Source: a bacterium (GTDB lineage Bacteria > Electryoneota > RPQS01). From it: a DNA stretch of 64,000 bases. Below are positions 21,403-38,626 of this stretch, piece by piece. Where the stretch lies: assembly GCA_020846695.1 (NCBI GenBank), contig JADLDM010000187.1:1010-65009 (forward strand). The letters are read 5' to 3'. Within the stretch, counting starts at the first letter, position 1. Each line of letters starts with the position of its first letter. The notes beneath the pieces were generated by a model, which worked only from the letters and a program-made list of their open reading frames with translations, had not been told where the DNA came from and searched no databases. The position numbers and the translations under genes were made by a program.

Positions 21403-21969
21403 ATGATTCGCTACACCGCAAAGACACTCGCCGTCGTCGCCATCGTTTTTGGCTGGCTCCTCGTCACAGGCGCTGCGCTCGCGCAAGACTCCACCAAGAC
21501 CCCCACCTACATCGGCGGATCAAAGTGCAAGATGTGCCACAAAGGAGAGAAGAACGGCAACATGTGGGAAATCTGGGAAGGCTCCACGCACGCAAAGTCC
21601 CTGCAAACCCTGATTGACAAGGGCGAGCAGAACAATGCCGAGTGCCTTGCCTGTCACACCACCGGACACGGAGTCGCAGGAGGATACGGCACCGCCGGAA
21701 TGGAAGCGCCTGAAGCTCTCGGTTCCGTAAGCTGTGAAGCATGTCACGGCCCCGGATCCGAATACAAATCCAAGAAAGTGATGGAAGATCACGCCGCTTC
21801 CGTGGCCGCGGGACTCTGGATTCCTGACGAAAACACCTGTAAGAAGTGCCACAATGAAAAGTCTCCGACTTTCAAGGGCTTCAACTTCGCCGAAGCGTGG
21901 GCGAAGATCAAGCACGAGACTCCCGCTGTCGCCGACAGCGCCGCCGCACCCGCGGGCGGATCGAACTAA
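21403..21969 (+). CDS. Periplasmic tetrahaem cytochrome c
   Basis: MIRYTAKTLAVVAIVFGWLLVTGAALA signal or anchor. Four CxxCH motifs (CKMCH, CLACH, CEACH, CKKCH). Confidence 0.8.
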   Translation: MIRYTAKTLAVVAIVFGWLLVTGAALAQDSTKTPTYIGGSKCKMCHKGEKNGNMWEIWEGSTHAKSLQTLIDKGEQNNAECLACHTTGHGVAGGYGTAGMEAPEALGSVSCEACHGPGSEYKSKKVMEDHAASVAAGLWIPDENTCKKCHNEKSPTFKGFNFAEAWAKIKHETPAVADSAAAPAGGSN

Positions 21970-22123
21970 CCCGCCGCAGCACATTCACTCTATTCAACGC
22001 GGCTTCCGAAATGGAGCCGCGTTGAGTAGGGAACTCCGATTTCGCTGTCTGAATCACGGGCCGACGAACCTGCATTTGTGAAAAGAATCACATTGCGCCG
22101 ACGGCCCGATTGAAGGCAAGATT

Positions 22124-23050
22124 ATGAATCTCAACCGTCGCGACTTCCTCAAATTCGCCGGAGCGACGACTGCTACAGCCGCACTCACTTCGCTCCCGAT
22201 CAAAGCGGAAGCGACCGAACATTTCACGGGACATCCTGATCGCAAAGGAATCCTCGTGGATACCTCGCTCTGCATCGGACACAACTGCCGACGCTGCGAA
22301 TTTGCCTGCGCCAAAGAAAATTACTTGCCGACTCCTGACAAACCTCCGGAAGATGCAAGTGTCTTCGACCAGCGCCGCCGCACTCACCCTGATCAGTTTA
22401 CCGTTATCAATCGCTTTCCCGGCCGTTCCGAGGACATGCCTGTCTATGCAAAAAAACAGTGTATGCACTGCGACGAACCGGCCTGCGCATCCGCCTGCTT
22501 AGTCGGAGCATTCAAGAAAACCCCTGAAGGAGCCGTCACCTACGATGCCTCCGTCTGCATCGGCTGCCGCTACTGCATGGTCGCCTGCCCCTTCGACATT
22601 CCAACTTACGAATACAACAGTGCACTTCACCCTCGCGTCAGGAAGTGCACTTTCTGTTTTGAGACTAAACTGAAAGAAGGGAAAGCTCCGGCCTGCGTCG
22701 AAGCCTGCCCGCGCGAAGTGATGACCTTCGGAAAACGCGAAGACTTGATCAAAGTCGCGCGTCAGAAGATCGCCCGCAACCCCGACAAATACGTTGACCA
22801 CATCTACGGTGAGCATGAAGTCGGCGGGACAAGCTGGATGTATCTCTCGCCCGTGCCGTTCGATTCTATCGGCATGAGAACCGATCTCGGCACGACGCCC
22901 TATCCCGAACTCACGCGCAACTATCTTTCCGCGGCCCCGCTCGTTATGGCCATCTGGCCGAGCTTCTTCCTCACTCTGTATCTGTTCAACAAACGCAAAG
23001 ACCAGATCGCCGCCGAAGAAAACGGCAAGCATAAAGAGGAGAGTGCTTAG
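22124..23050 (+). CDS. Tat-exported 4Fe-4S ferredoxin-type subunit (NrfC/PsrB/HybA/ActB-like) with a C-terminal TM helix
   Basis: Twin-arginine motif NRRDFLKF. Four Cys clusters of the CxxCxxCxxxCP type (CMHCDEPACASAC, CIGCRYCMVACP, CTFC...CVEACP). Confidence 0.85.
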   Translation: MNLNRRDFLKFAGATTATAALTSLPIKAEATEHFTGHPDRKGILVDTSLCIGHNCRRCEFACAKENYLPTPDKPPEDASVFDQRRRTHPDQFTVINRFPGRSEDMPVYAKKQCMHCDEPACASACLVGAFKKTPEGAVTYDASVCIGCRYCMVACPFDIPTYEYNSALHPRVRKCTFCFETKLKEGKAPACVEACPREVMTFGKREDLIKVARQKIARNPDKYVDHIYGEHEVGGTSWMYLSPVPFDSIGMRTDLGTTPYPELTRNYLSAAPLVMAIWPSFFLTLYLFNKRKDQIAAEENGKHKEESA

Positions 23051-24288
23051 TGGCAACCTTCTCTCCTTCTCTTCCGGGAAACGTGAACACCGGATCATGG
23101 CTGCGAGACAAGCTATTCCTCGGTATGACGCCGAAAGCCTATCTGCGCTCGTTGATCACGCCGTGGCACATGGTCGCCGCAGCAATCCTCGCAATCGGCC
23201 TGCCCGTCTTCTTCCAGAGATTTGCCTATGGAATCGGAGCGGTCTCTAATCTCACCGACACAAATCCGTGGGGAATCTGGATCGGCATTGACGTGCTCTG
23301 CGGAGTTGCTTTAGCCGCCGGAGGATTCATCATCGCCTCAATTGTGCATCTCTTCGGCATGAAAGAATATGCGCCGCTTGTCAGACCCGCAATCCTCACC
23401 GGATTTCTCGGCTACGCATTCGTCGTCGTCGGTTTGATGTTCGACTTGGGCCGACCGTGGAGACTTCCTTATCCGATGACGTTTGCATTCGGAACGAGTT
23501 CCGTCATGTTTGAAGTCGGCTGGTGTGTCGCGCTCTACTTGGGATGCCAATTCGTCGAGATGTTCCCGCCGATTTTTGAATGGCTCGGATACAAGAGGCT
23601 CCGCGCATGGGCCATGACCTTAGTGCTCGGCACAACCGTCCTGGCCGTCGTGCTCTCGACCTTGCATCAATCTTCACTCGGCGCACTCTTCTTGATTGCC
23701 CCAAGTAAACTGCATCCGCTCTGGTACAGCATGTATCTGCCGGTCTATTTTCTGATCAGCGCGGTCGCCGGCGGAATCGGCATGATCATCTTTGAATCCA
23801 CACTTTCACATCGCACTTTCAAAACTCAAACCGGACATTTGAGTCACGCGCAGCTTGATCACCTCGCGCTCGGACTTGCGAAGGGCGGCGCGATTGTCCT
23901 CTACCTCTATTTCTGGCTGAAAGTCGTCGGCCTTGCGCATGAACACCAATGGTCGTTACTTCTCTCTGGATGGGGACTATGGTGGCTCGTCGAAGTCATC
24001 GGTTTCATTCTTGCTCCGGCCTTTCTCTTCCTCTTTGCCGTGCGCGGTTTAAGTCCGCTCCTCGCGCGCGTCGCTGCAGTCTGGACCGTACTCGGATTGA
24101 TCCTTAATCGGCTGAATGTTTCGGTTGTCGCGTTAAATTGGAATCAAACCGAGCGCTACATTCCGCACTGGAAAGAAATCACGATTACCATCACAATCAT
24201 CACGATCGGCGTGCTGGTCTTCCAATGGATGGTCAACCGTATGCCAATTCTTTTACAGCATCCAGATTACGCCGGCGAAAGCCACTAA
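23050..24288 (+). CDS. NrfD/PsrC/HybB-family integral membrane quinol-interacting subunit
   Basis: ~10 TM helices. The start overlaps the Fe-S subunit stop. This is the typical partner of NrfC-like proteins. Confidence 0.85.
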   Translation: MATFSPSLPGNVNTGSWLRDKLFLGMTPKAYLRSLITPWHMVAAAILAIGLPVFFQRFAYGIGAVSNLTDTNPWGIWIGIDVLCGVALAAGGFIIASIVHLFGMKEYAPLVRPAILTGFLGYAFVVVGLMFDLGRPWRLPYPMTFAFGTSSVMFEVGWCVALYLGCQFVEMFPPIFEWLGYKRLRAWAMTLVLGTTVLAVVLSTLHQSSLGALFLIAPSKLHPLWYSMYLPVYFLISAVAGGIGMIIFESTLSHRTFKTQTGHLSHAQLDHLALGLAKGGAIVLYLYFWLKVVGLAHEHQWSLLLSGWGLWWLVEVIGFILAPAFLFLFAVRGLSPLLARVAAVWTVLGLILNRLNVSVVALNWNQTERYIPHWKEITITITIITIGVLVFQWMVNRMPILLQHPDYAGESH

Positions 24289-24449: not shown

Positions 24450-25541
24450 ATGAAACACTTACTCGCTTTCACCGTCCTCTTCGCGCTGCTTCTGATCGGC
24501 GAATCTTCCCACGCGAAGTCCGGTCCTAATAACGGCTGTGCAGAGTGCCACGTCTGCAGCAACCCCACGCTCTCCGATCCCTGCCTGCGCGGATGCCCGC
24601 GCTCCCGCGCAACGGTTGAAGACATCAAGCTCGGTCCCGATCGCATTCTCATCAACGAAATTGAAGTCGAGTATGACGCGGTTCCCTTTGCTCATCGCCT
24701 TCATGCCGAAATGACTGCGATGGACAAGGGCTGCCAGAATTGCCATCACTTTCAGGAAATCGGCGGTATCACCGCGTGCAAGAATTGCCACCCCGAGCAT
24801 ATCGCAGAAGAGAATCTCGAACAGCCCGGCTTGAAGGGCGCCTATCACCGTCAATGTCTCGGCTGTCATCAGGAGTGGAGCCACGACACGTCGTGCGAAA
24901 TCTGCCACCTGAAGAAGGGATCAGAGCTCGCCGAACCGCAAGTTAAGAGCGGACCCGGCAGTAGATTCGCCGGATTGAATGAGCCCGTCAAAAGAGTTTG
25001 GAATTCAACCTACGGCGGCGGCACCGTCGTCACACTTCACCATCGCAATCACACCGAAAAGTACGGAGTGGAATGCGCGGCATGTCATCACGCCGAAGGC
25101 TGTGCGGTTTGCCATGCGAAAAAAGAGCAGACTACTCAGGTGCGTCACAGCGAAGAGGCTCTGCACGCGATCTGCAATAGCTGTCACGCCGAGATGAGTT
25201 GCGATCAGTGCCATTTGAAGAGCGAGGCGCTGGAGTTTTCTCACGCACGCACAGGCTGGCCTTTGAAGACTTACCACGAGCGTCTGACATGCAGACGTTG
25301 TCACGGTGACAATCATCACTTCACCAAACCCTCCACAGATTGTGCAAGCTGCCACAAACCGTGGGATACCACTACCTTCAAGCATGAGCGCACGGGGCTT
25401 GCTCTCAACGAAACACACCTTGAGACTGATTGCGCTGAGTGTCATGTTGGAGCAAATTACACCGTCGCGCCAACGTGCAACAGCTGTCACGATACGGACA
25501 TTACTTTTCCCGCTTCCTTGCCGGGCAACCGGACGAGGTAA
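24450..25541 (+). CDS. Periplasmic multihaem cytochrome c (13 CxxCH)
   Basis: MKHLLAFTVLFALLLIGESSHA signal peptide. 13 CxxCH motifs counted in the translation. Confidence 0.85.
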   Translation: MKHLLAFTVLFALLLIGESSHAKSGPNNGCAECHVCSNPTLSDPCLRGCPRSRATVEDIKLGPDRILINEIEVEYDAVPFAHRLHAEMTAMDKGCQNCHHFQEIGGITACKNCHPEHIAEENLEQPGLKGAYHRQCLGCHQEWSHDTSCEICHLKKGSELAEPQVKSGPGSRFAGLNEPVKRVWNSTYGGGTVVTLHHRNHTEKYGVECAACHHAEGCAVCHAKKEQTTQVRHSEEALHAICNSCHAEMSCDQCHLKSEALEFSHARTGWPLKTYHERLTCRRCHGDNHHFTKPSTDCASCHKPWDTTTFKHERTGLALNETHLETDCAECHVGANYTVAPTCNSCHDTDITFPASLPGNRTR

Positions 25542-25544
25542 CAT

Positions 25545-28004
25545 ATGAGTCGCACCTACATTCTGCTCCTTGCTCTATTGATTCCGCTCGCGGCTTTCGC
25601 GGGCGATGACGCCGCGTGCGTGGATTGTCACTCCGACGGAACGCTTACCCGAACTCTGGACAACGGAACCGTCATTTCGCTTTGCGTCACATCCGATTCG
25701 CTCAAACTATCGCAACATGCCGCGCTCGCCTGCGTGGATTGCCATGCCGATTTGAAGGGCTTCGACGATTTCCCGCACGACGATAAACTCAAAGTGGTCA
25801 ACTGCGCAAGCTGTCACGCCGGAGCCGCGACTGAAGTCGCGGCAGGAGGACACGAGGGCGCGCTGAAATGCGCAGGCTGTCACGGCAAACACGACATTCT
25901 CTCGCCCAAAACTCCCGGCTCGCTTCTCTCGCCCGATCGCGTTGACAAGACGTGTGCAGAATGTCACAACCGGATGCACCCGCCGCAGAGAGGACGCTCC
26001 GCAGCCTACGCAAGTTATGACGTCGGCATTCACGGAAGGCTGACCGGAAAAAGTACGCGCGACTTGCCGAAGTGCACAACGTGCCATCACGCGCACACGG
26101 TCTCAAGCGAGCACAGGATGTCGAATGTGCTGGAAGACGCCTGCCTGAAATGTCATGACAATATCCGAGAGGAATTTAAGCAATCCGTTCACGGCGCATT
26201 GAATGAAGGACGTAATAAGACGCATTGCTTTGATTGTCACGGAGAACACAGAAGCCGCGCGCCCTCCGACACAACGCTGCGTGTGACCAATGAATCCCCC
26301 GCCGAAGCAACGTGCGGAGCCTGCCACCCTGAATCCGTGCAGCGCTACAATCAGAGTTTGCACGCGTGGGCGCTGGAAACCGGCTCTGTCCGCGCGCCTC
26401 GCTGCGAAAGCTGTCACGGCGCGCATAACATCAGACCCGTCAGTGATCCGCAATCTCCTATGCATCGTTCGCGGCAAGTAGAAACCTGCGCGAAGTGCCA
26501 CAGCCAAATCGGAATCACGCTCGATCCCGATGTGCGCCTACCGCGCTCTTTTGAGAACTATCTTGAGAGCACGCACGGCAAGAAACTGAAAGAGGGAAAC
26601 ACCGAAGTTCCAGTCTGCATAGATTGTCACGGGGGGCACGCGATTCGAGGCGGCAACGATCCCAATTCGACCATTGCGCACGTCAACATTGACAAGACCT
26701 GCGGAAAATGCCATGAGAAGGAGCAGGGTCTCTACCGTCAGTCCATTCACTATCGCGCTTTGATCAGCGGAATTGATGACAGCCCGACTTGCACGGGTTG
26801 TCACGGAGAGCACTTGTTGATCTCGCCGAAAGACCCGCTCTCAAAGGTGAGTCACTCGCGAGTCGCCGCCGAAACCTGCGGCAAATGCCACGAGAACCCC
26901 GATGTGATCCGCAAATACGGATTAGCGCCGGACGTGGTTTCAACCTATTCGGATAGCTATCACGGATTGGCAACGCAGGCGAAGCACAAGGACACTCCCT
27001 CCTGCGCAGATTGCCACGAGGCTCACGACGTTCGCACTGCGCATGATTCGCTCTCAACGATTCACAAGAGCAACGTCACCGAAACGTGCGCGAAGTGTCA
27101 CCCCAAAGCCGATGACAAGTTCGCGGCCTCCTATACGCACGTCGCGCTGCAGCCGGTGGAGGGTGGAGCCAATTGGTGGATCGCACGAATCTACTGGGTG
27201 TTATTGGCCGTGATTATCGGCGGAATGGTTGTTCATAATCTCCTGATTCTGAACTTCCACATGGTGAAAGCGCGCGAGCATCAGACAGCCGGCAAGAAAG
27301 TCACGCGCTTTGACAAACACCAATTAGTCCAGCACATGGCGCTGTCGGTCTCCTTCATCATGCTTGCCGTGACGGGCTTCGCGCTGAAATTCCCGAATGC
27401 ATGGTGGGTGAAATTCTCTGCGATGATCGGTTTCAGCGAACCGGTTCGCAGGATCACGCACCGAATCATGGCCGTGATTCTCATCGGCTGCTCCATCTAT
27501 CACGTCGTCTACCTGTTTATGACGCGCCGCGGACAGGAAGAGTTGAAGGCAATGCTGCCCGCAAAATCCGACGTCAGCGAATTCTCTGAGAACATGGCCT
27601 ATCACCTCAACAAGAGGAAAGACCCGCCGAAATTCGATCGCTATGACTATTCGCAGAAGGCCGAGTATTGGGCCTTGATCTGGGGAACCGTTCTAATGAT
27701 CGCTACAGGATTTGTGCTGTGGTTCCCGGCCGAACTTTCTCCGATACTTCCGGCTTGGGCCGTTCCCGTGAGCCAGACGATTCACCTTTATGAAGCATGG
27801 CTTGCAACGCTCGCGATTGTCGTGTGGCACTTCTTCTTCGTGATCTTCCATCCCGAAGAGTATCCCATGAGCTGGACGTGGTTGACCGGAAAGATTTCGC
27901 TCGATCTGGTCAAGCATCGCCACGAACGCTGGTACGACAAGATCGTGAAGGAAGAGGACGCCAAGCCCGATGCTGCAACCAAAACAGAGAGTCCAAAGCA
28001 ATAG
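25545..28004 (+). CDS. 17-haem cytochrome c fused to a C-terminal multi-TM dihaem cytochrome b-like membrane domain (CbcL-like c/b fusion), paralogue 1
   Basis: Signal peptide MSRTYILLLALLIPLAAFA. 17 CxxCH motifs. The C-terminal ~270 aa have ≥4 hydrophobic helices with conserved His (FDKHQLVQHMALSVSF..., ITHRIMAVIL..., IHLYEAWLATLAIVVWHFF). Confidence 0.8.
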   Translation: MSRTYILLLALLIPLAAFAGDDAACVDCHSDGTLTRTLDNGTVISLCVTSDSLKLSQHAALACVDCHADLKGFDDFPHDDKLKVVNCASCHAGAATEVAAGGHEGALKCAGCHGKHDILSPKTPGSLLSPDRVDKTCAECHNRMHPPQRGRSAAYASYDVGIHGRLTGKSTRDLPKCTTCHHAHTVSSEHRMSNVLEDACLKCHDNIREEFKQSVHGALNEGRNKTHCFDCHGEHRSRAPSDTTLRVTNESPAEATCGACHPESVQRYNQSLHAWALETGSVRAPRCESCHGAHNIRPVSDPQSPMHRSRQVETCAKCHSQIGITLDPDVRLPRSFENYLESTHGKKLKEGNTEVPVCIDCHGGHAIRGGNDPNSTIAHVNIDKTCGKCHEKEQGLYRQSIHYRALISGIDDSPTCTGCHGEHLLISPKDPLSKVSHSRVAAETCGKCHENPDVIRKYGLAPDVVSTYSDSYHGLATQAKHKDTPSCADCHEAHDVRTAHDSLSTIHKSNVTETCAKCHPKADDKFAASYTHVALQPVEGGANWWIARIYWVLLAVIIGGMVVHNLLILNFHMVKAREHQTAGKKVTRFDKHQLVQHMALSVSFIMLAVTGFALKFPNAWWVKFSAMIGFSEPVRRITHRIMAVILIGCSIYHVVYLFMTRRGQEELKAMLPAKSDVSEFSENMAYHLNKRKDPPKFDRYDYSQKAEYWALIWGTVLMIATGFVLWFPAELSPILPAWAVPVSQTIHLYEAWLATLAIVVWHFFFVIFHPEEYPMSWTWLTGKISLDLVKHRHERWYDKIVKEEDAKPDAATKTESPKQ

Positions 28005-28013
28005 ATTGAAGTA

Positions 28014-30512: not shown

Positions 30513-30532
30513 ATAAGCTTGCGCGTTTTTTG

Positions 30533-30568
30533 AGAGCCGTTCGCTAAATGCGGGCGGCTCTTTTGTTT
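30533..30568 (+). terminator. Rho-independent terminator after the cytochrome c/b operon
   Basis: AGAGCCGttcgctaaatgcgggCGGCTCTtttgttt. A 7-bp GC-rich stem plus a T-tract, 20 nt after the stop. Confidence 0.55.
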
Positions 30569-30643
30569 AGCACACTAAGTGATGAAGAAACAGAAGGCGT
30601 GGAAAAAAATTTTGCAGAACGGAGGTGGTTGAAAAGATGAGAG

Positions 30644-30856
30644 ATGAAGCGGGAAGTGAAGAATCTGCGGGCAGGAACACGTAAGCTGTTGTGTTACCTA
30701 TTGAACGTTGCGAAGAGTGAAAAGTTCCGGGCTGTTCTTGAAAGAGATAGAGATTGGAGGAGGATTCAGAGCGCACGCAGTGCGGCACTACAGGAAGCAG
30801 ACAGACACGATTTATCATGTCCCTGCGATGAGAAAGAGAAACGGTCGCTTGAGTGA
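30644..30856 (+). CDS. Candidate small charged protein (70 aa) between two terminators
   Basis: A GGAGGTGG SD lies ~15 nt upstream. The ORF MKREVKNLRAGTRKLLCYLL...CPCDEKEKRSLE has its stop inside the loop of the downstream hairpin. The region is purine-rich. The call is speculative. Confidence 0.2.
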   Translation: MKREVKNLRAGTRKLLCYLLNVAKSEKFRAVLERDRDWRRIQSARSAALQEADRHDLSCPCDEKEKRSLE

Positions 30857-30876
30857 GCGACCGTTTGATGTTTTTG
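30838..30876 (-). terminator. Bidirectional hairpin terminator downstream of the minus-strand cytochrome operon
   Basis: AAACGGTCGCttgagtgaGCGACCGTTT. A perfect 10-bp stem with T-rich flanks on both strands. It lies 14-50 nt downstream of the gene ending at 30890. Confidence 0.5.
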
Positions 30877-34148: not shown

Positions 34149-35852
34149 TTACCGGACGGTCATCCTCTTCTGTTCGTTCAGGAGCGGCTGACCCGGCGTC
34201 AAATAATCAATCGCATTCGTCAACAACGAATAAGCGTATTCGTAGTTGTGGACGCCCATCGAGCCTTCATTGGTGATGAAGTACCAGGCATAGGCGGCTT
34301 CGCGCTGTTCACGCGTTGTGCTCGTGGTGTCGAAATTCGGCTCTTCGCCATTGTTCGGCAGCATGGCGAACAGTTGATCCATCAAGCCCTGAATTTCCGT
34401 GCGGCGACCGTGATAGTCGAATCCTTCAGGAGTCGCGTGGCACTGATTGCAAGCCTCGACGCGCGGCTCAAAGGCGTGACCATGATAGTCGTGGCCGGGA
34501 GTGTCGCCCGGAATCGTGTGCACGTGACAGGTCACGCACATATCCGCAAGATTGCCCTCACCAATCACTACATCCGGCTGGTGAGCCGATTCACGATTGT
34601 AAGTATAGCCTGCAATTTCGTAGGAACCGCGACCCAGCATCATGTCTGCCTGGCAGCTTGCGTGTGGTCCGGCGTGCGCGCTACCGTTGTTGATCTGGCC
34701 AACGATGTTTGAGTAGGTGCGGCGAGCATGGTGACACTGTGCGCAGAGCTGTCCCTTGCCGAAGCTCAGAACGCCCAATTCTTCATCGGGAACCCACAGC
34801 GTATCGGCGATGTCCGGTCCAGGATAGACGATGGGGAATGCGCCCAGACCACGCAGGTAGCCCGGATTGTCCTCGCTGAACTCATGCACGTCGTGGCAGG
34901 TTGCACAGGAAACTTGCCAGCCTTCCGCCGGCACTGCTACGTCCGCCCATTCCGGGTCCCATTTCTTAATGAAGGCTTCGGAGATGTGACAGAAGTTGCA
35001 AGACGAGCGATTCCACTCCGTATTGAACTCCTCGATTCCGCCGGCGCGCTCGATCGCGGTGCCGTGCGCGGATTCTTCGTACTCTTCAAATTGCGAGTGG
35101 CAGCGATTACAGGTCTCACCCGTGATAACCAGTTCGACATCCGGCTCATGCGACGAGAAATCCGGGCCCATCGGGCCGTGACAGGCTTCGCAAGTCACAT
35201 TGCGAAGCATGGCATTAGGATAGTCATCATATCCGCCATTGTCAACCCCCGGTGTGGTCACCGAGCCGTCGTAGGCGACGATATCGTCCCAACCGGTGGT
35301 GTGGCACTGCAAGCAGTAGGGATTGTTTTCCGCGCTTGAAGCGACTAATGCATCATAAGCGCCTGCATGGTGGGTGCCGCGCCAGCTTTCCACCTTGGCC
35401 TGATGGCAGTGCGCGCAACGATTCTCACTGTCGCCCAAGTAGCTCGGATAGACCGACGGAACATAGGTGTTCACGCCGACGCGAACCGTGCCAGTCGCCG
35501 ATCCGTCTTCGTCGGTGACGGTGACGGTGATTTCATAGAGACCGATGCCCGAGGGCGGCGTGTAGGTGGTTACTGCCGCGTTGGTGCTGGACAGTGTGCC
35601 CGAAGCTGCCGACCAGTGATAGGTCATGGCGTCGCCATTGGGGTCATAGGCGCTGACAAAGAGCACCGTGCTTTCGCCTGTGCCGACCGAATCAGGAGCC
35701 GCAACAACCGCCGTGATAATCGGCGCCATGTCCGGATTCAAGCCCGACGGTCCCGCAGGCCCTTGGTCGCCTTCGCAACCCCAGAATGCAACGCTGACCG
35801 TAAGCAAGCCTACAATCAGAAATGCAACCGGATGAAGTCTTCTACGTGTCAT
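34149..35852 (-). CDS. Lipoprotein multihaem cytochrome c (9 CxxCH) with an N-terminal PKD/Ig-like domain
   Basis: MTRRRLHPVAFLIVGLLTVSVAFWGC carries a lipobox. A PKD-like segment (VLFVSAYDPNGDAMTYHWSAASG) follows. 9 CxxCH motifs. Confidence 0.8.
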   Translation of the reverse strand: MTRRRLHPVAFLIVGLLTVSVAFWGCEGDQGPAGPSGLNPDMAPIITAVVAAPDSVGTGESTVLFVSAYDPNGDAMTYHWSAASGTLSSTNAAVTTYTPPSGIGLYEITVTVTDEDGSATGTVRVGVNTYVPSVYPSYLGDSENRCAHCHQAKVESWRGTHHAGAYDALVASSAENNPYCLQCHTTGWDDIVAYDGSVTTPGVDNGGYDDYPNAMLRNVTCEACHGPMGPDFSSHEPDVELVITGETCNRCHSQFEEYEESAHGTAIERAGGIEEFNTEWNRSSCNFCHISEAFIKKWDPEWADVAVPAEGWQVSCATCHDVHEFSEDNPGYLRGLGAFPIVYPGPDIADTLWVPDEELGVLSFGKGQLCAQCHHARRTYSNIVGQINNGSAHAGPHASCQADMMLGRGSYEIAGYTYNRESAHQPDVVIGEGNLADMCVTCHVHTIPGDTPGHDYHGHAFEPRVEACNQCHATPEGFDYHGRRTEIQGLMDQLFAMLPNNGEEPNFDTTSTTREQREAAYAWYFITNEGSMGVHNYEYAYSLLTNAIDYLTPGQPLLNEQKRMTVR

Positions 35853-35914
35853 GATTCTTCCCTTTCTTTTCTCTCCCAAGAAACAATTCTACCGCATGTT
35901 ATGTGAATGAAATA

Positions 35915-35937
35915 CCCTCGATTCAATGAATCGAGGG
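35915..35937. promoter_or_regulatory. Perfect 11-bp inverted repeat (CCCTCGATTCA a TGAATCGAGGG) in the leader/promoter of the cytochrome-porin operon
   Basis: The arms were read directly. It lies 63-85 nt upstream of the 35852 start codon on the minus strand. Confidence 0.3.
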
Positions 35938-36366
35938 TAAAAATGTGGCTCAGGTGGGCAGACTCGTCACCTGCAACATCACTTGGCAATGATGCACGGC
36001 ATATTTGAGTTCGTTTGTTTGTCCTGTCCAGCGGGCTTTCATGTTCCGCGACCAATTCTTATTTTATTGAAAGCACTCTGCAACAAACTTATTCAATTTT
36101 CACGCCAACTTCAAGTGAAAATTGTCACTAAGTAACAAACTCACATATGCCGCGCGCCCATCCATAACACGTAAAAACTGCGATGTAGAGTCTTTTTGTC
36201 AACTTCAAATTGTCATATTCGAGAGGCGAAGCGCGATGAGAAGATGCTCATTAAAGTCTCTCTCGCGATGATTTTGCAAGATTATCCGCAATAGAAATGC
36301 AAATCGCGCCACTCTCCTCTATGGGGAGGGACAATCTTGCCCAATAACCGACTAATTTGTCGCCCG

Positions 36367-36672
36367 CTACTTGCCTGAATCGCGGTGCGAGCGAACAAAC
36401 CGCTGAATCTCGTCCGGCTCAAACAGAATCACTTTGCGGGAAAGTCGGACACAGCGCAGCTTGTCCTCCTTCACCCAACGCATAATCGTCGTACGATGGA
36501 CATGGCCGAGCATCTGCGCGGCTTCGGTCAATGTCAGGAGCTTGGAAGGATCGTGCTCGACTGCGGCACTCATCGGGCGCGGGCGAACCTTCGTCATTGC
36601 AGGATCAGGTCGTGTGCCGACCACGGCCTTTTTTAGGCTATTCATGTGCTTGCCTTTCGTTTGCGCAAACAA
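36367..36672 (-). CDS. Small helix-turn-helix DNA-binding protein (excisionase/AlpA/MerR-like HTH)
   Basis: LTLTEAAQMLGHVHRTTIMRWVKEDKLRCVRLSRKVILFEPDEIQRFV is a typical Xis/MerR-type HTH. The start may be the internal M (MNSLKK) at 36645. Confidence 0.55.
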   Translation of the reverse strand: MFAQTKGKHMNSLKKAVVGTRPDPAMTKVRPRPMSAAVEHDPSKLLTLTEAAQMLGHVHRTTIMRWVKEDKLRCVRLSRKVILFEPDEIQRFVRSHRDSGK

Positions 36673-36685
36673 AAGATGAAGACGG

Positions 36686-38626
36686 CTATTGAGCCGTACT
36701 TATCGTCTCAAACCACTTATGGAACAGCTCGGGATTGTGAACCGTCTTGCTGCCGTCCTTGCGCAGCATCTCGGCCAATTCCGAGTATTGTCGCTGAATT
36801 TCAGAACCGGGACGATATTGTCCAACCGCGAGATCTGCACGCTTCATCAGATCACTTCCCGAATCCACCCAAACCTTGAGCGAATCGGAGTATTCCGCAT
36901 CGTGACAAGTGACACAGCTTGCGGACACATCGCGCAGAACCTTGCTCTTGCCCGCTTCATGGCAATCCGTGCAGGAGACATCTTCTTGCCACATCGCAGA
37001 GGGAATTTTCGAGGCGAAGCTCTTCACCTCGCCCTTGTACACCGCGAGTTGTGCCGCGTGACAGCGCGAACAATCCTCCTTGCCGGTTGCCACGCTCTGA
37101 TGGTGACAGCTATTGCACTGCTCGCGCGACATCACCAGCTTGCCATGCGGTTCTCCTCCGACCTCATGACAGGTCTCGCATTTGCTCTGTGAAGTGTGCT
37201 TGCGGTGATCGAACATCCTTCCGTCGAAGGCCACCAACGCGTCGCCCGCCGAGGGATGACATCCCATGCAGGTCGTCGAACTGGAGCGCGCGCTGATCGG
37301 TTCAATCTGCATCGCGAGCTTCTCGATCATCTCCGGATTGTGAATCGGATTGCCCGCTTCATAAATCCGCAGCGCCGCCACAAGCGAATCGCGCGAAGCG
37401 GGTTCGAGCTTTTCGGCGCCGACCATTAATTCACGCACGCGCCTCTTCAACGGCTCTTCCCAGCGCTTCCAAAGATCGCCGTATCCGGTGTCGTGACAGG
37501 GAATGCAAGTCGGTTCGGGGCGCATCTCCTTTGCCGCGTGAACATCGCCGACATGACAGGAGGAGCAGGTCATTCCCGCGCGCGACATCGAGGAGGGCGC
37601 GAGTTCCATGCCCGGGAGATTTCCCTCCCATACGCGCTCGATGGCATTTTCCGGCCCGCCGTGACATGTTCCGCACTCGCGATCAACATTCGCCTGCGCG
37701 ACGGCCTCTTTTCCGTGACGAATTACCACGTGACATTGCGTGCACTCAACCGTGTGCTCCGTTACGTGCATCTGGTGGACGAACTCGCGATCCTCATACT
37801 TCTCGATGTGATCCACCTTCGCGTGACAGGAATTGCAGCGTTCCTTCGGAACAAATCCGTCGCCCGCGACTTCCGCCGCGTGGCAGCTTGAGCAATTCGC
37901 ATTGCGCGCCAGCATCTCCGTGTGATCAAAGCTCGTATCCGCGGCGGCAACTCCCTTCGGAGGATTGTGACATTTCGTACAAGTCGCAAGTTCCGACCAT
38001 TTGCCTGATGCATCCGGCTTGAAATGGCAGAGAAAACAGGTTGTCTCATTCACGCTGATATGCTCGCCCTGAACAATCTGCGCGTGACACGACGTGCATC
38101 TCAATTGCCGGTCGCGACGCACCTGCTCCAAGTGAGGCTTGTGATCAAAGAGCACACCCTTGAAATCCTCGGCGCTCTGCAAAAGTCTTGTGTCGTGACA
38201 GCCTGAACGCAAACAGGATGCGTCTTCGATTTCCGCCCACGGCTTCGAGCGCTTGTAAACTCCCGTGAAGTAGTTCGCCACCATCGAGAGCGCCATGAAT
38301 TTCGAATGCACCGTGCCCTCGAACCCCGGAGGAATGTGACATTCGGTGCACGTCACTTGACTGTGTGTCGAAGTTTCCCACGCGGCGAAATACGGCTCCA
38401 TCACGTGACACGATTTGCAGAACGTCGGCTGCGACGTCACCTTCACAAACGCCGTCATCGCAATCACCGTCACGACGACCGTAGCCATCAACACCAAGCC
38501 AATCCGCTTCGGACCGAAAGCGAGCAGTCTTGCCCACCCTACCTTGATCATCCAAAACGGGAGCTTGATCGTCTCCCAGCAGGCGACGAAAAACTCTTTG
38601 AACAAGCTGTTCTTCGGCTCCGTCAT
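36686..38626 (-). CDS. Membrane-anchored NapC/NirT/ImcH-like multihaem cytochrome c (17 CxxCH), putative quinol dehydrogenase
   Basis: An N-terminal TM helix is immediately followed by FCKSCH (the NapC/NirT hallmark). 17 CxxCH motifs. The start was chosen at MTEPKN, but upstream in-frame starts are possible. Confidence 0.7.
   Translation of the reverse strand: MTEPKNSLFKEFFVACWETIKLPFWMIKVGWARLLAFGPKRIGLVLMATVVVTVIAMTAFVKVTSQPTFCKSCHVMEPYFAAWETSTHSQVTCTECHIPPGFEGTVHSKFMALSMVANYFTGVYKRSKPWAEIEDASCLRSGCHDTRLLQSAEDFKGVLFDHKPHLEQVRRDRQLRCTSCHAQIVQGEHISVNETTCFLCHFKPDASGKWSELATCTKCHNPPKGVAAADTSFDHTEMLARNANCSSCHAAEVAGDGFVPKERCNSCHAKVDHIEKYEDREFVHQMHVTEHTVECTQCHVVIRHGKEAVAQANVDRECGTCHGGPENAIERVWEGNLPGMELAPSSMSRAGMTCSSCHVGDVHAAKEMRPEPTCIPCHDTGYGDLWKRWEEPLKRRVRELMVGAEKLEPASRDSLVAALRIYEAGNPIHNPEMIEKLAMQIEPISARSSSTTCMGCHPSAGDALVAFDGRMFDHRKHTSQSKCETCHEVGGEPHGKLVMSREQCNSCHHQSVATGKEDCSRCHAAQLAVYKGEVKSFASKIPSAMWQEDVSCTDCHEAGKSKVLRDVSASCVTCHDAEYSDSLKVWVDSGSDLMKRADLAVGQYRPGSEIQRQYSELAEMLRKDGSKTVHNPELFHKWFETISTAQ

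What the first reader, a model, noticed from the sequence alone, without database searches (positions are those of the whole stretch)
21403..38626. A 17-kb multihaem cytochrome island (8 cytochrome genes, ~96 CxxCH) that looks like a complete inner-membrane-to-outer-surface electron conduit
Two convergent operons encode the following proteins:
(i) a tetrahaem cytochrome c;
(ii) a Tat-exported NrfC-like Fe-S protein;
(iii) a NrfD-like quinol-interacting membrane protein;
(iv) a 13-haem cytochrome;
(v,vi) two tandem 17-haem cytochrome c proteins fused to dihaem cytochrome b-like membrane anchors.

On the opposite strand:
(vii) a NapC/NirT/ImcH-like membrane-anchored 17-haem cytochrome;
(viii) a small HTH protein;
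(ix) a PKD-domain lipoprotein 9-haem cytochrome;
(x) a porin-like beta-barrel;
(xi,xii) 11-haem and 8-haem cytochromes.

This combines two or three different quinol-oxidising modules (NrfCD-type, cytochrome b fusion, NapC-type) with a porin-cytochrome outer-membrane module. That is the parts list of extracellular electron transfer (Geobacter Pcc/Cbc/ImcH, Shewanella Mtr), but in a different combination and gene order. The host appears to be a non-Proteobacterial, T9SS-bearing lineage. The locus sits directly next to a starch-fermentation locus and an ADP-forming acetyl-CoA synthetase. This suggests fermentation coupled to extracellular electron disposal, or the reverse direction (metal oxidation).
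Basis: partly seen in the sequence, partly recalled or inferred. Interest (0 to 1): 0.85.

Follow-up and report, generated by a model that had tools for sequence, protein, structure and literature searches.

The report
Multihaem cytochrome electron-conduit gene island

Summary
Window 21403-38626 encodes eight c-type cytochromes with exactly 96 CxxCH motifs plus two atypical ones; shuffling predicts 0.9, and the other 24 ORFs of the window have none.

The remaining genes are:
- a Tat-exported HmcB/NrfC-type Fe-S protein;
- an HmcC/NrfD-type membrane subunit;
- a small HTH protein;
- a family-less protein that AlphaFold models as a 22-strand outer-membrane barrel.

The gene set recurs in Electryoneota (AABM5-125-24) MAGs, collinear in some, and as a single operon in an unrelated MAG. 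It is therefore one functional unit, not a chance neighbourhood.

- The "ImcH-like" protein is an NrfH-type (CxxCHxM) 17-haem quinol dehydrogenase from a large, widespread, uncharacterised family.
- The "8-haem" protein is a lipoprotein with a conserved ninth CX3CH site.
- The PKD lipoprotein is homologous to OcwA, a Gram-positive surface terminal reductase. Its relatives carry a T9SS sorting tail.
- The starch and acetyl-CoA synthetase neighbours are not conserved.

Best reading: a porin-cytochrome trans-envelope electron conduit, probably working outward. Direction and substrate are unproven. It is a new variant of a known kind, of moderate interest.

The parts
21403..21969 (+). Tetrahaem cytochrome c (c554-like) with a Sec signal peptide; likely a periplasmic carrier or partner of the Fe-S/NrfD module
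   Evidence: 4 CxxCH. Pfam Cytochrome_C554 at 3.9e-14. Four haems are kept in 13 homologues, which always sit next to the HmcB-like gene or the porin triad.
22124..23050 (+). Tat-exported four-cluster Fe-S protein of HmcB/NrfC/HybA type, with a C-terminal membrane anchor
   Evidence: TAT_signal plus Fer4_11. NCBIfam HmcB equivalog 435.5 bits, above the cutoff of 420; HybA 225 bits; NrfC 99 bits. C-terminal hydrophobic helix at residues 270-288.
23050..24288 (+). NrfD/HmcC-type integral membrane quinone-interacting subunit (about 9 predicted TM helices, no cofactor motifs)
   Evidence: Pfam NrfD 2.1e-18. NCBIfam HmcC 492.9 bits, below the cutoff of 550; HybB 246 bits. Nine hydrophobic segments.
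24450..25541 (+). 13-haem periplasmic cytochrome c containing a c3-type domain like the C-terminal domain of HmcA
   Evidence: 13 CxxCH and a signal peptide. PDB hits to 16-haem HmcA (1Z1N 3.1e-11; 1H29) and to nine-haem cytochrome c. Thirteen haems are conserved in orthologues.
25545..28004 (+). 17-haem cytochrome c fused to a dihaem cytochrome b membrane domain (FdnI/HydC type); CbcL/MtrH/MtoC-type quinol:cytochrome module, paralogue 1
   Evidence: 17 CxxCH; Ni_hydr_CYTB 8.4e-17. Alignment to FdnI (1KQF_C) keeps all four haem-b His ligands H18, H57, H155 and H169. Identity to orthologues is 73-75%, all with 17 haems.
28014..30512 (+). Second 17-haem cytochrome c / dihaem cytochrome b fusion; an ancient paralogue (30% identical to the first)
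   Evidence: 17 CxxCH. The four His ligands are conserved in the paralogue alignment. It is the best-conserved gene of the island, at 81-85% identity to orthologues.
30532..30562 (+). Intrinsic-terminator-like hairpin ending the plus-strand operon
   Evidence: 13-bp stem with 8 GC pairs plus a T-tract, 20 nt after the stop codon.
30839..30866 (.). Bidirectional hairpin ending the minus-strand operon
   Evidence: Palindromic 11-12-bp stem scored on both strands, 24 nt downstream of the stop of the 8(+1)-haem gene.
30890..31894 (-). Lipoprotein cytochrome with 8 CxxCH plus 1 CX3CH (9 haems); putative outer-membrane or surface cytochrome of the porin module
   Evidence: The lipobox Cys44 and all nine haem motifs are invariant in 19 homologues. 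GSu_C4xC__C2xCH domain. Weak profile hits to GSU1996 and OmcA. It always lies directly after the 11-haem gene.
31881..32885 (-). 11-haem periplasmic cytochrome (c7-repeat 'wire' type); candidate for insertion into the barrel
   Evidence: All 11 CxxCH motifs are invariant or at least 90% conserved in 32 homologues. The profile hits the Geobacter dodecahaem GSU1996 (3OV0) at 1.5e-26, ACIII ActA and MtrF/MtrC; MtrA reaches only 4e-4. A 4-nt start/stop overlap with the porin gene is also seen in L001.
32882..34120 (-). 22-strand outer-membrane beta-barrel ('porin') of a family without a Pfam or NCBIfam model
34149..35852 (-). Lipoprotein with a PKD domain and a 9-haem domain homologous to OcwA; putative cell-surface terminal cytochrome
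   Evidence: Lipobox 'AFWGC', PKD/Big_9, 9 CxxCH. The profile hits OcwA of Thermincola potens (6I5B) at 1.8e-23 along the whole haem domain, and the 6QVM multihaem cytochrome at 3.1e-11. It is homologous to T9SS-tailed multihaem cytochromes in relatives (hhalign 99.9%, E 3.6e-33).
35853..36113 (-). Conserved promoter-like block and roughly 225-nt structured leader upstream of the outer-membrane operon
   Evidence: -35 TTG and -10 TAnnnT are invariant in 6 relatives with a 17-nt conserved spacer. A hairpin plus U-tract at 35913-35939 keeps its pairing although the stem sequence differs.
36367..36645 (-). Small HTH_17 (excisionase/MerR-like) DNA-binding protein; candidate regulator
   Evidence: HTH_17 1e-10. 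The same position is kept at 67-76% identity in six relatives.
36686..38626 (-). Membrane-anchored NrfH/NapC/NirT-type quinol dehydrogenase module extended to 17 CxxCH plus 1 CX4CH
   Evidence: Cytochrom_NNT 2.1e-09, above its cutoff. NrfH (2J7A_C) 6e-13, with the TM helix and the CxxCHxM haem-1 motif aligned. One strong TM segment. The family has at least 1189 members; 100 of 117 full-length top hits have 17 haems and 118 of the 120 listed carry CxxCHxM.

Best explanation
The island encodes one conserved trans-envelope electron conduit of the porin-cytochrome kind. It most likely carries electrons outward, from the quinol pool to an extracellular or insoluble acceptor such as Fe(III)/Mn(IV) minerals, humic matter, an electrode or a partner cell.

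**Inner membrane (domain content and cofactor ligands shown; activity inferred).** Three kinds of quinol-interacting module are present:
- an HmcB/HmcC (NrfC/NrfD-type) Fe-S plus membrane pair, with a tetrahaem and a 13-haem periplasmic cytochrome;
- two ancient paralogous fusions of a 17-haem domain to an FdnI-like dihaem cytochrome b (CbcL/MtoC type);
- an NrfH-type protein with the CxxCHxM quinol-site haem, extended to 17+1 haems.

**Periplasm (inferred).** The long membrane-anchored haem domains and the 4- and 13-haem proteins carry electrons across.

**Outer membrane (fold, targeting signals and homology shown; assembly inferred).** A 22-strand barrel houses the 11-haem c7-repeat cytochrome. 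Two lipoprotein cytochromes take electrons to the cell surface: one with 8+1 haems, and a PKD-bearing 9-haem protein homologous to the terminal reductase OcwA.

**Regulation (inferred).** A small HTH protein and a conserved promoter and leader probably control the outer-membrane operon.
For: **Real cytochromes.** There are 96 CxxCH motifs against 0.86 expected. Haem numbers are conserved in all orthologues. Haem motifs are invariant or nearly so in the family alignments.

**One functional unit.**
- The whole 12-gene set is kept in the same layout in Electryoneota MAGs, although the flanks differ.
- In more distant relatives the genes are rearranged into one collinear run: porin, c11, c8, CcsA/ResB, c4, HmcB, HmcC, c13, c17/cyt b.
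- In an unrelated MAG there is a single operon: HmcB, HmcC, tetrahaem, NapC-17, c19/cyt b, porin homologue, c11-like, lipoprotein cytochrome, c554-like.
- A fourth layout is seen in L047.

**Quinol modules.**
- All four FdnI haem-b histidines are conserved in both fusions.
- The NrfH TM helix and the CxxCHxM motif are conserved.
- HmcB scores above its equivalog cutoff, with a Tat signal.

**Outer-membrane module.**
- The barrel has 22 strands.
- The 11-haem profile hits GSU1996 at 1.5e-26.
- The lipobox cysteine and the CX3CH site are invariant.
- These features fit the published Pcc definition: an 18-22-strand porin, a 5-14-haem periplasmic cytochrome, and outer-membrane cytochromes that often carry atypical motifs (PMC4245776).

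**Surface exposure and terminal role.** The 9-haem protein is homologous to OcwA (1.8e-23). Its homologues in relatives carry T9SS sorting tails instead of a lipobox.

**No catalytic subunit.** The island has no molybdopterin, hydrogenase or CxxCK-type NrfA.
Against: - There are no expression, biochemical or physiological data, and the organism is uncultured.
- Direction is undetermined. CbcL/MtoC-type and porin-cytochrome systems also work inward in Fe(II) oxidisers (PMC6295460). HmcBC, HybAB and Qrc-type modules act as quinone reductases in sulfate reducers. Other Electryoneota are reported to have dissimilatory sulfate reduction (PMC9324843).
- Insertion of the 11-haem protein into the barrel was not modelled. 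Its monomer model was poor (pLDDT 67) and gave no structural matches.
- OcwA-family proteins are related to NrfA and octahaem reductases, and a relative hits Pfam Cytochrom_C552. A soluble substrate is therefore not excluded.
- Sequence homology of the barrel to Geobacter OmbB or ExtB could not be tested.
- The window itself lacks cytochrome c maturation genes, which must lie elsewhere in the genome.
Confidence: 0.6

Rival explanations
1. The same conduit works inward. It would take electrons from Fe(II) or minerals, a cathode or a syntrophic partner, pass them across the outer membrane, and deliver them to the quinone pool. The CbcL/MtoC-type and HmcBC-type modules would then act as quinone reductases, possibly feeding sulfate or another respiration.
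For: - CbcL/MtrH/MtoC homologues occur in both Fe(III) reducers and Fe(II) oxidisers, and are thought to be reversible (PMC6295460).
- The Fe-S and membrane pair is closest to HmcB/HmcC and HybA/HybB. By established knowledge these pass periplasmic electrons into the membrane.
- Members of Ca. Electryoneota are reported to carry dissimilatory sulfate reduction genes (PMC9324843).
Against: - Known oxidiser conduits (MtoAB, PioAB) lack large surface cytochromes. Here there are two surface-targeted multihaem proteins, one homologous to the terminal reductase OcwA.
- NrfH/NapC/ImcH-type modules are so far implicated only in quinol oxidation (PMC6295460).
- The window shows an organotrophic, starch-degrading host.
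- No sulfate-reduction or carbon-fixation genes lie in the window or next to the cluster in relatives.
Confidence: 0.2
2. The island is a periplasmic or surface respiratory system for a soluble or colloidal substrate, such as nitrite or hydroxylamine, sulfur or polysulfide, or humic or quinone compounds. The OcwA/NrfA-related 9-haem protein would be the catalytic reductase, and the barrel a substrate channel or anchor rather than a sheath for a haem wire.
For: - The 9-haem profile also hits NrfA and octahaem nitrite reductases at 5e-6 to 3e-5.
- Its T9SS-tailed relative hits Pfam Cytochrom_C552 at 5.1e-16.
- NrfH-type and NrfCD-type modules classically serve soluble-substrate reductases (PMC3534657).
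- A rhodanese gene sits inside one related cluster.
Against: - No CxxCK active-site motif occurs anywhere in the island.
- Surface targeting by lipobox or T9SS tail is unnecessary for a soluble periplasmic substrate.
- The barrel gene is translationally coupled to, and always followed by, an 11-12-haem periplasmic and a lipoprotein cytochrome. That is the porin-cytochrome signature.
- About 100 haems is excessive for a simple reductase chain.
Confidence: 0.12
3. The island is an accidental neighbourhood of independent respiratory modules: an Hmc-like complex, CbcL-like proteins, a NapC-type protein and a separate outer-membrane cytochrome cluster. There would be no shared pathway.
For: - The genes lie in at least three transcription units on two strands.
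- One distant homologue of the NapC-type protein stands alone.
Against: The same components recur together in at least four different gene orders, and in lineages whose porins are only 23-47% identical. One of these is a single operon. Flanking genes, in contrast, are not conserved.
Confidence: 0.03

Closest known systems
Geobacter porin-cytochrome (Pcc/Ext) conduits: OmbB-OmaB-OmcB and ExtABCD-type clusters, and their relatives reported in Ignavibacterium album and Melioribacter roseus
   Same: - A barrel of 18-22 strands is encoded next to a Sec-exported periplasmic multihaem cytochrome (5-14 haems) and lipoprotein outer-membrane cytochromes that often carry atypical CXnCH motifs (PMC4245776). 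Here these are a 22-strand barrel, an 11-haem protein and an 8+1-haem lipoprotein.
- The 11-haem protein is sequence-related to the Geobacter c7-repeat dodecahaem GSU1996.
- Clusters of this kind have already been reported in the same superphylum (PMC7399161).
   Different: - The barrel belongs to a small family of its own with no Pfam model. There are 265 representatives, and named members come only from FCB phyla. Homology to OmbB or ExtB could not be tested.
- The second surface cytochrome is of OcwA type with a PKD domain, or carries a T9SS tail in relatives.
- All inner-membrane modules are encoded in the same island or operon, unlike the dispersed Geobacter genes.
CbcL (GSU0274) / MtrH / MtoC family of inner-membrane cytochrome b-c fusions
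   Same: - The architecture matches: an N-terminal periplasmic multihaem c domain and a C-terminal HydC/FdnI-like dihaem b membrane domain (PMC6295460). All four b-haem histidines are conserved.
- The haem number, 17, lies inside the reported range of 3-23.
   Different: - CbcL has 9 haems; here there are 17.
- Two deeply diverged paralogues (30% identity) sit in tandem.
- They are linked to HmcBC-like and NrfH-like genes in several lineages.
NrfH / NapC / NirT / CymA / ImcH quinol dehydrogenases
   Same: - An N-terminal TM helix is followed by a tetrahaem module.
- The CxxCHxM haem-1 motif that marks the menaquinol site of NrfH is present.
   Different: - The protein has 17 CxxCH plus a CX4CH, against 4-7 haems in characterised members.
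- It is not of the ImcH type, which has three TM helices, an atypical first motif with His/Gln ligation, and 7 haems.
- No NrfA, NapAB or Tor/Dor partner is present.
- It belongs to a large uncharacterised 17-haem family that also occurs in Acidobacteriota and Aminicenantes.
Desulfovibrio Hmc/Nhc complexes (and E. coli HybA-HybB, NrfCD)
   Same: - The Fe-S subunit scores as an HmcB equivalog (435 bits, above the cutoff of 420).
- The membrane subunit is HmcC-like (493 bits).
- An adjacent high-haem cytochrome has an HmcA-like c3 domain.
   Different: - There is no HmcD, HmcE or HmcF.
- The cytochrome has 13 haems rather than 16, and scores 47.7 bits against a cutoff of 400.
- The gene order is c4, B, C, c13 rather than A, B, C, D, E, F.
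- HmcC falls below its cutoff of 550.
OcwA of Thermincola potens (PDB 6I5B) and the related 6QVM multihaem cytochrome: surface terminal reductases of Gram-positive electroactive bacteria
   Same: Both have nine haems. Profile similarity runs along the whole haem domain, including the C-terminal helical region (E 1.8e-23).
   Different: - Here the protein sits in a diderm.
- It carries an N-terminal lipobox and a PKD domain, or a T9SS C-terminal sorting domain in relatives.
- It is encoded next to a porin.
Shewanella MtrCAB
   Same: The functional logic is the same: a periplasmic haem wire inside a barrel, with a surface lipoprotein cytochrome.
   Different: - No MtrB_PioB family signal was found, and the barrel has 22 strands rather than 26.
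- There is no DmsE/MtrA-family decahaem among the outer-membrane genes; the MtrA PDB hit reaches only 4e-4.
- The surface cytochromes are not of the MtrC/OmcA family.

Membership tests
Porin-cytochrome (Pcc-type) trans-outer-membrane conduit | Outer-membrane beta-barrel of about 18-22 strands encoded next to multihaem cytochrome genes | tested here: met
   AF2 model with 22 strands, pLDDT 81.8. Only OM barrels are matched. The gene is flanked by cytochrome genes in all 23 closer loci.
Porin-cytochrome (Pcc-type) trans-outer-membrane conduit | Sec-exported periplasmic multihaem cytochrome (5-14 haems) adjacent to the barrel gene | tested here: met
   The 11-haem protein has a signal peptide and a 4-nt overlap with the porin gene. 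There are 11-12 haems in most homologues.
Porin-cytochrome (Pcc-type) trans-outer-membrane conduit | Outer-membrane lipoprotein cytochrome, often with atypical CXnCH motifs | tested here: met
   Invariant lipobox Cys and invariant CX3CH in the 8+1-haem protein. A second lipoprotein cytochrome has 9 haems.
Porin-cytochrome (Pcc-type) trans-outer-membrane conduit | Sequence homology of the barrel to Geobacter OmbB/OmbC or ExtB/E/I | not testable with these tools
   No Geobacter sequences or models were available. Pfam and NCBIfam hold no model that the barrel hits.
Porin-cytochrome (Pcc-type) trans-outer-membrane conduit | Demonstrated electron transfer across the outer membrane | not testable with these tools
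   This requires proteoliposome, genetic or electrochemical experiments.
MtrCAB / MtoAB / PioAB | MtrB/PioB-family barrel (Pfam MtrB_PioB) | tested here: not met
   No such hit in any of 24 family members at E<=1. The barrel has 22 predicted strands.
MtrCAB / MtoAB / PioAB | DmsE/MtrA-family decahaem periplasmic cytochrome | tested here: not met
   The 11-haem protein has no TIGR03508 hit. Its profile reaches MtrA (6R2Q_A) only at 4.3e-4, against 1.5e-26 for GSU1996.
CbcL / MtrH / MtoC | N-terminal periplasmic multihaem c domain fused to a C-terminal HydC/FdnI-like membrane domain | tested here: met
   Signal peptide, 17 CxxCH, then 5-6 TM segments; Ni_hydr_CYTB and FdnI hits.
CbcL / MtrH / MtoC | Histidine ligands for two b-type haems | tested here: met
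   The equivalents of FdnI H18, H57, H155 and H169 are conserved in both paralogues.
CbcL / MtrH / MtoC | Direct sequence relationship to GSU0274, MtoC or MtrH | not tested
The published family range (3-23 haems, 15 phyla, one Calditrichaeota member) is compatible.
ImcH | Three N-terminal TM helices | tested here: not met
   Only one strong hydrophobic segment precedes the first haem motif. This was a crude hydropathy scan, so a weak second helix cannot be excluded.
ImcH | Atypical first haem motif next to the membrane domain (CX3CH, His/Gln ligation) and about 7 haems (range 5-10) | tested here: not met
   The first motif is the canonical CKSCH followed by M (NrfH type). There are 17 CxxCH plus a CX4CH at residue 139.
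NapC/NirT/NrfH superfamily | TM helix plus tetrahaem quinol-dehydrogenase module, with CxxCHxM at haem 1 (NrfH subtype) | tested here: met
   PF03264 37.8 bits, above the cutoff of 24.1. NrfH structure 2J7A_C at 6e-13, with the helix and motif aligned. The motif is present in 118 of 120 homologues.
Nrf nitrite reductase system | NrfA catalytic pentahaem with a CxxCK active-site motif | tested here: not met
   No CxxCK in any island protein. No NrfA family hit above cutoff.
Hmc complex (HmcABCDEF) | HmcB Fe-S subunit | tested here: met
   NF045715 435.5 bits, above the cutoff of 420.
Hmc complex (HmcABCDEF) | HmcC membrane subunit | tested here: inconclusive
   NF045714 492.9 bits, below the cutoff of 550.
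Hmc complex (HmcABCDEF) | 16-haem HmcA and the HmcD/E/F subunits | tested here: not met
   The 13-haem protein scores 47.7 bits against a cutoff of 400, on one c3 domain only. No HmcDEF-like genes are in the island.
Alternative complex III | ActB with a molybdopterin-like domain, pentahaem ActA, and a second NrfD-like ActF, in act gene order | tested here: not met
   There is no molybdopterin domain and no second NrfD gene, and the order differs. ActA is only a distant profile hit of the 11-haem protein.
OcwA-type nonahaem surface cytochromes | Nine c-haems with sequence similarity along the OcwA haem domain | tested here: met
   Nine invariant CxxCH motifs. Profile against 6I5B gives E 1.8e-23, with four significant stretches (a fifth is not) spanning residues 13-501 of OcwA.
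T9SS cargo | C-terminal Por_Secre_tail sorting domain on the surface cytochrome | tested here: not met
   The window protein has a lipobox and no CTD. Homologues in L004, L029 and L034 do carry the CTD.

The most novel reading that the evidence does not exclude
The HmcBC-like pair, the 17-haem NrfH-type protein and the 17-haem cytochrome b fusions are not redundant alternatives. They would be obligate partners of one widespread, still uncharacterised envelope-spanning machine found in Electryoneota, other FCB lineages and lineages not identified here. In this machine, membrane-anchored 17-haem 'cables' reach the porin complex directly, so no diffusible periplasmic carrier is needed. The terminal OcwA-type cytochrome is delivered to the surface either as a lipoprotein or by the type IX secretion system, which would be the first haem-loaded T9SS cargo with a respiratory role.
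Probability: 0.15. Interest if true: 0.8.

Novelty: new variant of a known kind. Interest (0 to 1): 0.55.

Why it matters
**For this phylum.** If the conduit works as proposed, it gives candidate phylum Electryoneota (AABM5-125-24) a respiratory link to minerals, humic matter, electrodes or partner cells. The phylum is present in activated sludge and sediments, and has so far been described as a group of sulfate-reducing or fermentative heterotrophs.

[quoted passage not shown] Mtr- and Omb-based searches miss it, because the barrel has no family model.

**Hypotheses that become testable:**
- whether NrfCD-type, NrfH-type and CbcL-type quinol modules cooperate or are tuned to acceptors of different potential, as ImcH, CbcL and CbcBA are in Geobacter;
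- whether an OcwA-type terminal reductase, known from Gram-positives, is reused behind a Gram-negative porin;
- whether the type IX secretion system can export multihaem cytochromes.

**For uncharacterised families.** The 17-haem NrfH-like family is large, with at least 1189 homologues, and entirely uncharacterised.

Tried and rejected
1. An exact-sequence look-up of the porin, and of its NCBI version P0001, to recover the source contig found nothing on record.
2. The AFDB50 fold library was unavailable. The barrel could therefore not be compared with predicted Geobacter or Ignavibacteria porins.
3. The AlphaFold2 model of the 11-haem protein was poor (pLDDT 67) and Foldseek gave no significant match. 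AlphaFold2 places no haems and the model shows little secondary structure, so it was not used as evidence.
4. The 8+1-haem protein alone has no PDB sequence relative. Its profile gives only weak hits.
5. Rfam and tRNA scans of the window were empty.
6. A sigma-54 reading of the conserved block upstream of the outer-membrane operon was considered, because the TGG-N8-TTG spacing fits. It was dropped in favour of a sigma-70-like -35/-10 pair, because -35 TTG and -10 TAnnnT are the invariant columns and the -12 GC is missing.
7. Canonical Nrf, ACIII, Hmc and Mtr assignments were each tested and rejected on defining features (see the membership test).
8. The idea that the starch and acetyl-CoA synthetase genes belong to the system was rejected, because relatives have unrelated flanks.
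9. Papers on Melioribacter respiration (PMC5492636) and on large-scale outer-membrane cytochrome prediction (PMC11475568) contained nothing relevant to this cluster.
10. A literature search for T9SS together with multihaem cytochromes listed no paper, among the 15 shown, that mentions T9SS.

Full report
**1. What is in the sequence**

The interval 21403-38626 holds twelve genes in two convergent blocks.

Plus strand:
- a tetrahaem cytochrome (21403-21969);
- a Tat-exported four-cluster Fe-S protein (22124-23050);
- an NrfD-type membrane protein (23050-24288);
- a 13-haem cytochrome (24450-25541);
- two 17-haem cytochromes, each fused to a cytochrome b domain (25545-28004 and 28014-30512).

Minus strand, in order of transcription:
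- a membrane-anchored 17-haem NapC/NirT-type cytochrome (38626-36686);
- a 92-aa HTH_17 protein (36645-36367);
- a PKD-domain 9-haem lipoprotein (35852-34149);
- a 412-aa protein without any family hit (34120-32882);
- an 11-haem cytochrome (32885-31881);
- an 8-haem lipoprotein cytochrome (31894-30890).

There is also one CX3CH and one CX4CH. Shuffling the residues of the same proteins gives 0.86 motifs on average. The other 24 ORFs of the window (14,484 aa) have none.

Strong hairpin/T-tract terminators follow each convergent block, at 30532-30562 and 30839-30866. The flanks are a starch-utilisation locus (GH13, GH57, debranching enzyme, MalK-type ABC transporter), an ADP-forming acyl-CoA synthetase, and proteins with T9SS sorting tails.

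**2. Origin**

The family-less protein is 100% identical to NCBI IT157_09705 of a MAG labelled only 'bacterium'. Relatives are labelled Calditrichaeota, or 'bacterium'.

One relative carries the island genes that lie within the fetched ±10 kb, in the same layout. It is Aved_18-Q3-R54-62_BATAC.765 (GCA_016703065.1). The supplement of PMC11495043 classifies it as GTDB p__AABM5-125-24; c__RPQS01; g__JABWCQ01. AABM5-125-24 is Ca. Electryoneota, in the FCB superphylum.

Published descriptions of the phylum stress sulfate reduction, microaerobic respiration and protein degradation. They do not mention this cluster (PMC9324843). The activated-sludge survey only counts at least three extracellular multihaem proteins in two AABM5-125-24 MAGs.

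**3. The genes form one conserved unit**

In the loci of HK-STAS-AABM5-4 (L001/L009) and of two Danish sludge MAGs (L010, L012) the island genes within the fetched ±10 kb keep the same convergent layout. L007 and L008 share the minus-strand half. Porin identity is 57-65% and identity of the second cytochrome b fusion is 81-85%. The flanks are unrelated: methionine synthase instead of starch genes.

In more distant relatives (porin 38-47% identical) the same genes form one collinear run: porin, c11, c8, CcsA/ResB cytochrome-maturation genes, tetrahaem, HmcB-like, HmcC-like, c13, c17/cytochrome b.

Searching outward from the NapC-type protein found an unrelated MAG (GCA_026417415.1). There the kit is a single operon:
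- HmcB-like (40% identity) and HmcC-like (37%);
- a tetrahaem;
- a 17-haem NapC-type protein (38%);
- a 19-haem/cytochrome b fusion (36%);
- a full-length homologue of the barrel (hhalign 93.7%, E 2e-7);
- a c11-like 9-haem protein;
- a 5-haem lipoprotein;
- a c554-like tetrahaem.

A fourth arrangement in L047 runs: NapC-type, barrel homologue (96.4%, E 1e-9), two cytochromes, a c554-like tetrahaem, a rhodanese, and a cytochrome b fusion followed by a second, truncated multihaem gene of similar size.

Remote porin-c11-c8 triads (porin 23-25% identical) occur in MAGs labelled Calditrichaeota, Calditrichaceae, Rhodothermales and Bacteroidetes. In further Calditrichaceae, Caldithrix and Bacteroidota loci, only c11/c8 homologues passed the thresholds.

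Repeated co-occurrence in different orders, with non-conserved flanks, is the strongest argument that this is a single system. It also removes the basis for the proposed functional link with the starch and acetyl-CoA synthetase genes.

**4. Inner-membrane modules**

*(a) The Fe-S and membrane pair.* It is closest to HmcB (435.5 bits, cutoff 420) and HmcC (492.9 bits, cutoff 550). HybA/HybB come next, and NrfC is well below. The Fe-S protein has a Tat signal and a C-terminal anchor helix. The 13-haem protein shares only a c3-type domain with HmcA. No HmcDEF genes are present. The module is therefore Hmc/Nhc-like, not an Hmc complex.

*(b) The two 17-haem/cytochrome b fusions.* Their membrane domains align with FdnI. 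All four haem-b histidines (H18, H57, H155, H169 of 1KQF_C) are conserved in both. This is the CbcL/MtrH/MtoC architecture, reported with 3-23 haems in 15 phyla (PMC6295460). The paralogues are only 30% identical to each other but 73-85% identical to their orthologues. The duplication is therefore old and both copies are maintained.

*(c) The minus-strand 17-haem protein.* It aligns with the NrfH structure over the TM helix and the first haems. It keeps the CxxCHxM motif that marks the menaquinol-site haem (background). It does not have the ImcH hallmarks: three TM helices, an atypical first motif, and about 7 haems.

This protein belongs to a very large uncharacterised family, with 1189 hits at E<=1e-5. 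Of the top 120 hits, 100 of the 117 full-length ones have exactly 17 CxxCH, and 118 of 120 carry CxxCHxM. Members labelled Acidobacteriota and Aminicenantes are included.

**5. Outer-membrane module**

*The 11-haem protein.* Its gene overlaps the barrel gene by 4 nt. All of its haem motifs are invariant or nearly so. Its profile is most similar to the Geobacter c7-repeat dodecahaem GSU1996 (1.5e-26). Weaker matches are ACIII ActA and MtrF/MtrC, and MtrA reaches only 4e-4.

*The 8+1-haem lipoprotein.* The next gene has an invariant lipobox cysteine, and invariant 8 CxxCH plus a CX3CH.

This triad fits the published operational definition of Pcc clusters. It fails the Mtr definition.

*The upstream PKD lipoprotein.* It has nine invariant haem motifs. 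Its profile matches OcwA, the nonahaem surface terminal reductase of Thermincola potens, at 1.8e-23 along the haem domain. It also matches the 6QVM multihaem cytochrome at 3.1e-11. I identify these two PDB entries from my own knowledge. The tool lists 6I5B as 'Uncharacterized protein' and 6QVM as 'Multiheme cytochrome cf'.

In relatives that lack the lipoprotein form, a homologous haem domain (hhalign 99.9%, E 3.6e-33) carries a T9SS C-terminal sorting domain. Two alternative surface-targeting devices on the same haem domain argue for a cell-surface location.

From my own knowledge, not tested here: acidic residues just after the lipid-modified cysteine (C-SED, C-EGD) resemble the Bacteroidota surface-lipoprotein export signal.

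**6. Mechanism proposed**

*Shown:*
- domain content and cofactor ligands;
- targeting signals;
- the barrel fold;
- conserved linkage of the genes.

*Inferred:*
- Quinol is oxidised at the NrfH-type haem 1, at the FdnI-like b-haems, and at the NrfD-type subunit.
- Electrons move along the membrane-anchored 17-haem domains and the 4- and 13-haem proteins.
- They then pass to the 11-haem protein inside the barrel, and on to the two surface lipoprotein cytochromes.

By analogy with MtrCAB, where 20 haems span about 185 Å (my own knowledge), a 17-haem chain could cover much of the periplasm. No model was made to test this.

The multiplicity of quinol modules may reflect tuning to acceptor potential, as for ImcH, CbcL and CbcBA in Geobacter. 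Alternatively, since they travel together in several lineages, it may reflect cooperation in one assembly.

*Direction.* Outward flow is favoured because:
- there are two surface-targeted cytochromes, one of a terminal-reductase family;
- an NrfH-type module is present;
- the host is an organotroph.

Inward flow cannot be excluded because:
- MtoC-type modules are reversible;
- HmcBC/HybAB-type modules act as quinone reductases;
- sulfate reduction is reported in the phylum.

A catalytic role for the OcwA/NrfA-related protein on a soluble substrate is a minor alternative.

**7. Regulation (side observation)**

The 514-nt spacer between the HTH gene and the PKD cytochrome gene is conserved in six relatives. 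It contains:
- a sigma-70-like promoter, with -35 TTG and -10 TAnnnT invariant and a conserved 17-nt spacer;
- a leader of roughly 225 nt with a 5' stem-loop;
- a C-rich/G-rich hairpin plus U-tract about 60 nt before the start codon, whose pairing is kept although the stem sequence differs;
- a second hairpin.

There is no Rfam match.

**8. Comparison with what is known, and novelty**

Every component belongs to a known kind: Pcc-type porin-cytochrome module, CbcL/MtoC fusion, NrfH/NapC module, Hmc/NrfCD-type pair, OcwA-type cytochrome.

The idea of an NrfCD-to-multihaem-to-outer-membrane Fe(III) reductase chain was already proposed for Melioribacter roseus. That organism is a polysaccharide degrader of the same superphylum (PMC3534657). 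Geobacter-like porin-cytochrome clusters have been reported in Ignavibacteria. Finding sequence-divergent porin-cytochrome clusters in uncultured phyla is also an established pattern.

What appears new:
- the particular kit and its conservation as one island or operon;
- the barrel family, which has no existing model;
- the pairing of a Gram-positive-type OcwA terminal cytochrome with a porin, and with lipoprotein or T9SS targeting;
- recognition of a large 17-haem NrfH-like family;
- assignment of such a system to Ca. Electryoneota.

I rate it a new variant of a known kind. It is real and coherent, moderately interesting to specialists, and directly testable.

Noticed in passing
window 35853-36366 (minus strand); also L001:7647-8137, L007:7640-8143, L008:7547-8053, L010:7563-8076, L012:7627-8134: The long spacer between the HTH gene and the PKD cytochrome gene is conserved. 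It holds a sigma-70-like promoter with an unusually conserved 17-nt spacer (GTTGG..AAnTTG), which may be an operator. A structured leader of about 225 nt follows. Its terminator-like C5/G5 hairpin plus U-tract keeps pairing while the stem sequence changes. This may be an attenuator or a 5'-UTR regulatory RNA. There is no Rfam match.
   Followed up: partly
L004/L005 13565-16564; L006 13145-16105; L002 11993-14885; L046 13291-16243: In distant relatives the System II cytochrome c maturation genes (CcsA/ResB) sit inside the cytochrome cluster. The window's island lacks them, so they must lie elsewhere in that genome.
   Followed up: no
L004:17566-19284, L029:3364-6117 (minus strand), L034:6037-8658: Multihaem cytochromes homologous to the OcwA-like 9-haem domain carry a T9SS C-terminal sorting domain (Por_Secre_tail). 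This implies export of haem-loaded cytochromes by the type IX secretion system. A literature search listed no paper, among the 15 shown, linking T9SS and multihaem cytochromes.
   Followed up: partly
L045 7474-17981 (GCA_026417415.1) and L047 10001-21917 (GCA_020444265.1): Unrelated lineages carry the same kit as one operon or one co-directional cluster: NrfCD-like pair, 17-haem NapC-type protein, multihaem/cytochrome b fusion, barrel homologue, small cytochromes. L047 also has a rhodanese gene inside the cluster, which from my own knowledge is reminiscent of Geobacter ExtH.
   Followed up: partly
proteins P0266-P0385 (homologues of window 36686-38626, minus strand): The 17-haem NrfH-like protein belongs to a very large uncharacterised family, with at least 1189 hits. 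The haem count is strikingly fixed: 17 in 100 of 117 full-length top hits. Members are annotated only as 'NapC/NirT family cytochrome c' or 'nitrate/TMAO reductase-like tetraheme subunit', including ones from Acidobacteriota and Aminicenantes.
   Followed up: partly
window 60-20882: A large starch and glycogen utilisation locus. It has three or four GH57-related giant proteins (827-1099 aa), GH13 enzymes (one with a T9SS tail), a debranching enzyme with a glucodextranase-like C-terminal module, and a MalK-type ABC importer. There is also a 927-aa protein (13656-16439) whose only hit is a 'choice-of-anchor X' domain.
   Followed up: no
window 41333-44257: A 974-aa protein combines a PKD domain with a PGA_cap (CapA-like, poly-gamma-glutamate capsule) domain. 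Poly-gamma-glutamate synthesis has been noted for other Electryoneota (PMC9324843).
   Followed up: no
window 60832-63831 (minus strand) and 44868-46568: Two large secreted proteins of unknown function. One is 999 aa with only a weak DVUA0089-family hit. The other is 566 aa with only a T9SS sorting tail.
   Followed up: no
window 30567-30818 (minus strand): An 83-aa ORF lies in the convergent intergenic spacer between the two terminators. It has low-complexity composition and was not examined further; it is probably not a gene.
   Followed up: no
Genome contigs record titles for L007, L008, L011, L013, L016, L018, L022, L023: Several MAGs carrying the Electryoneota-type cluster are titled 'uncultured Alphaproteobacteria bacterium' in the public records. 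This conflicts with their T9SS/FCB gene content and with the close relatives, and looks like a placeholder or mislabelled taxonomy.
   Followed up: no
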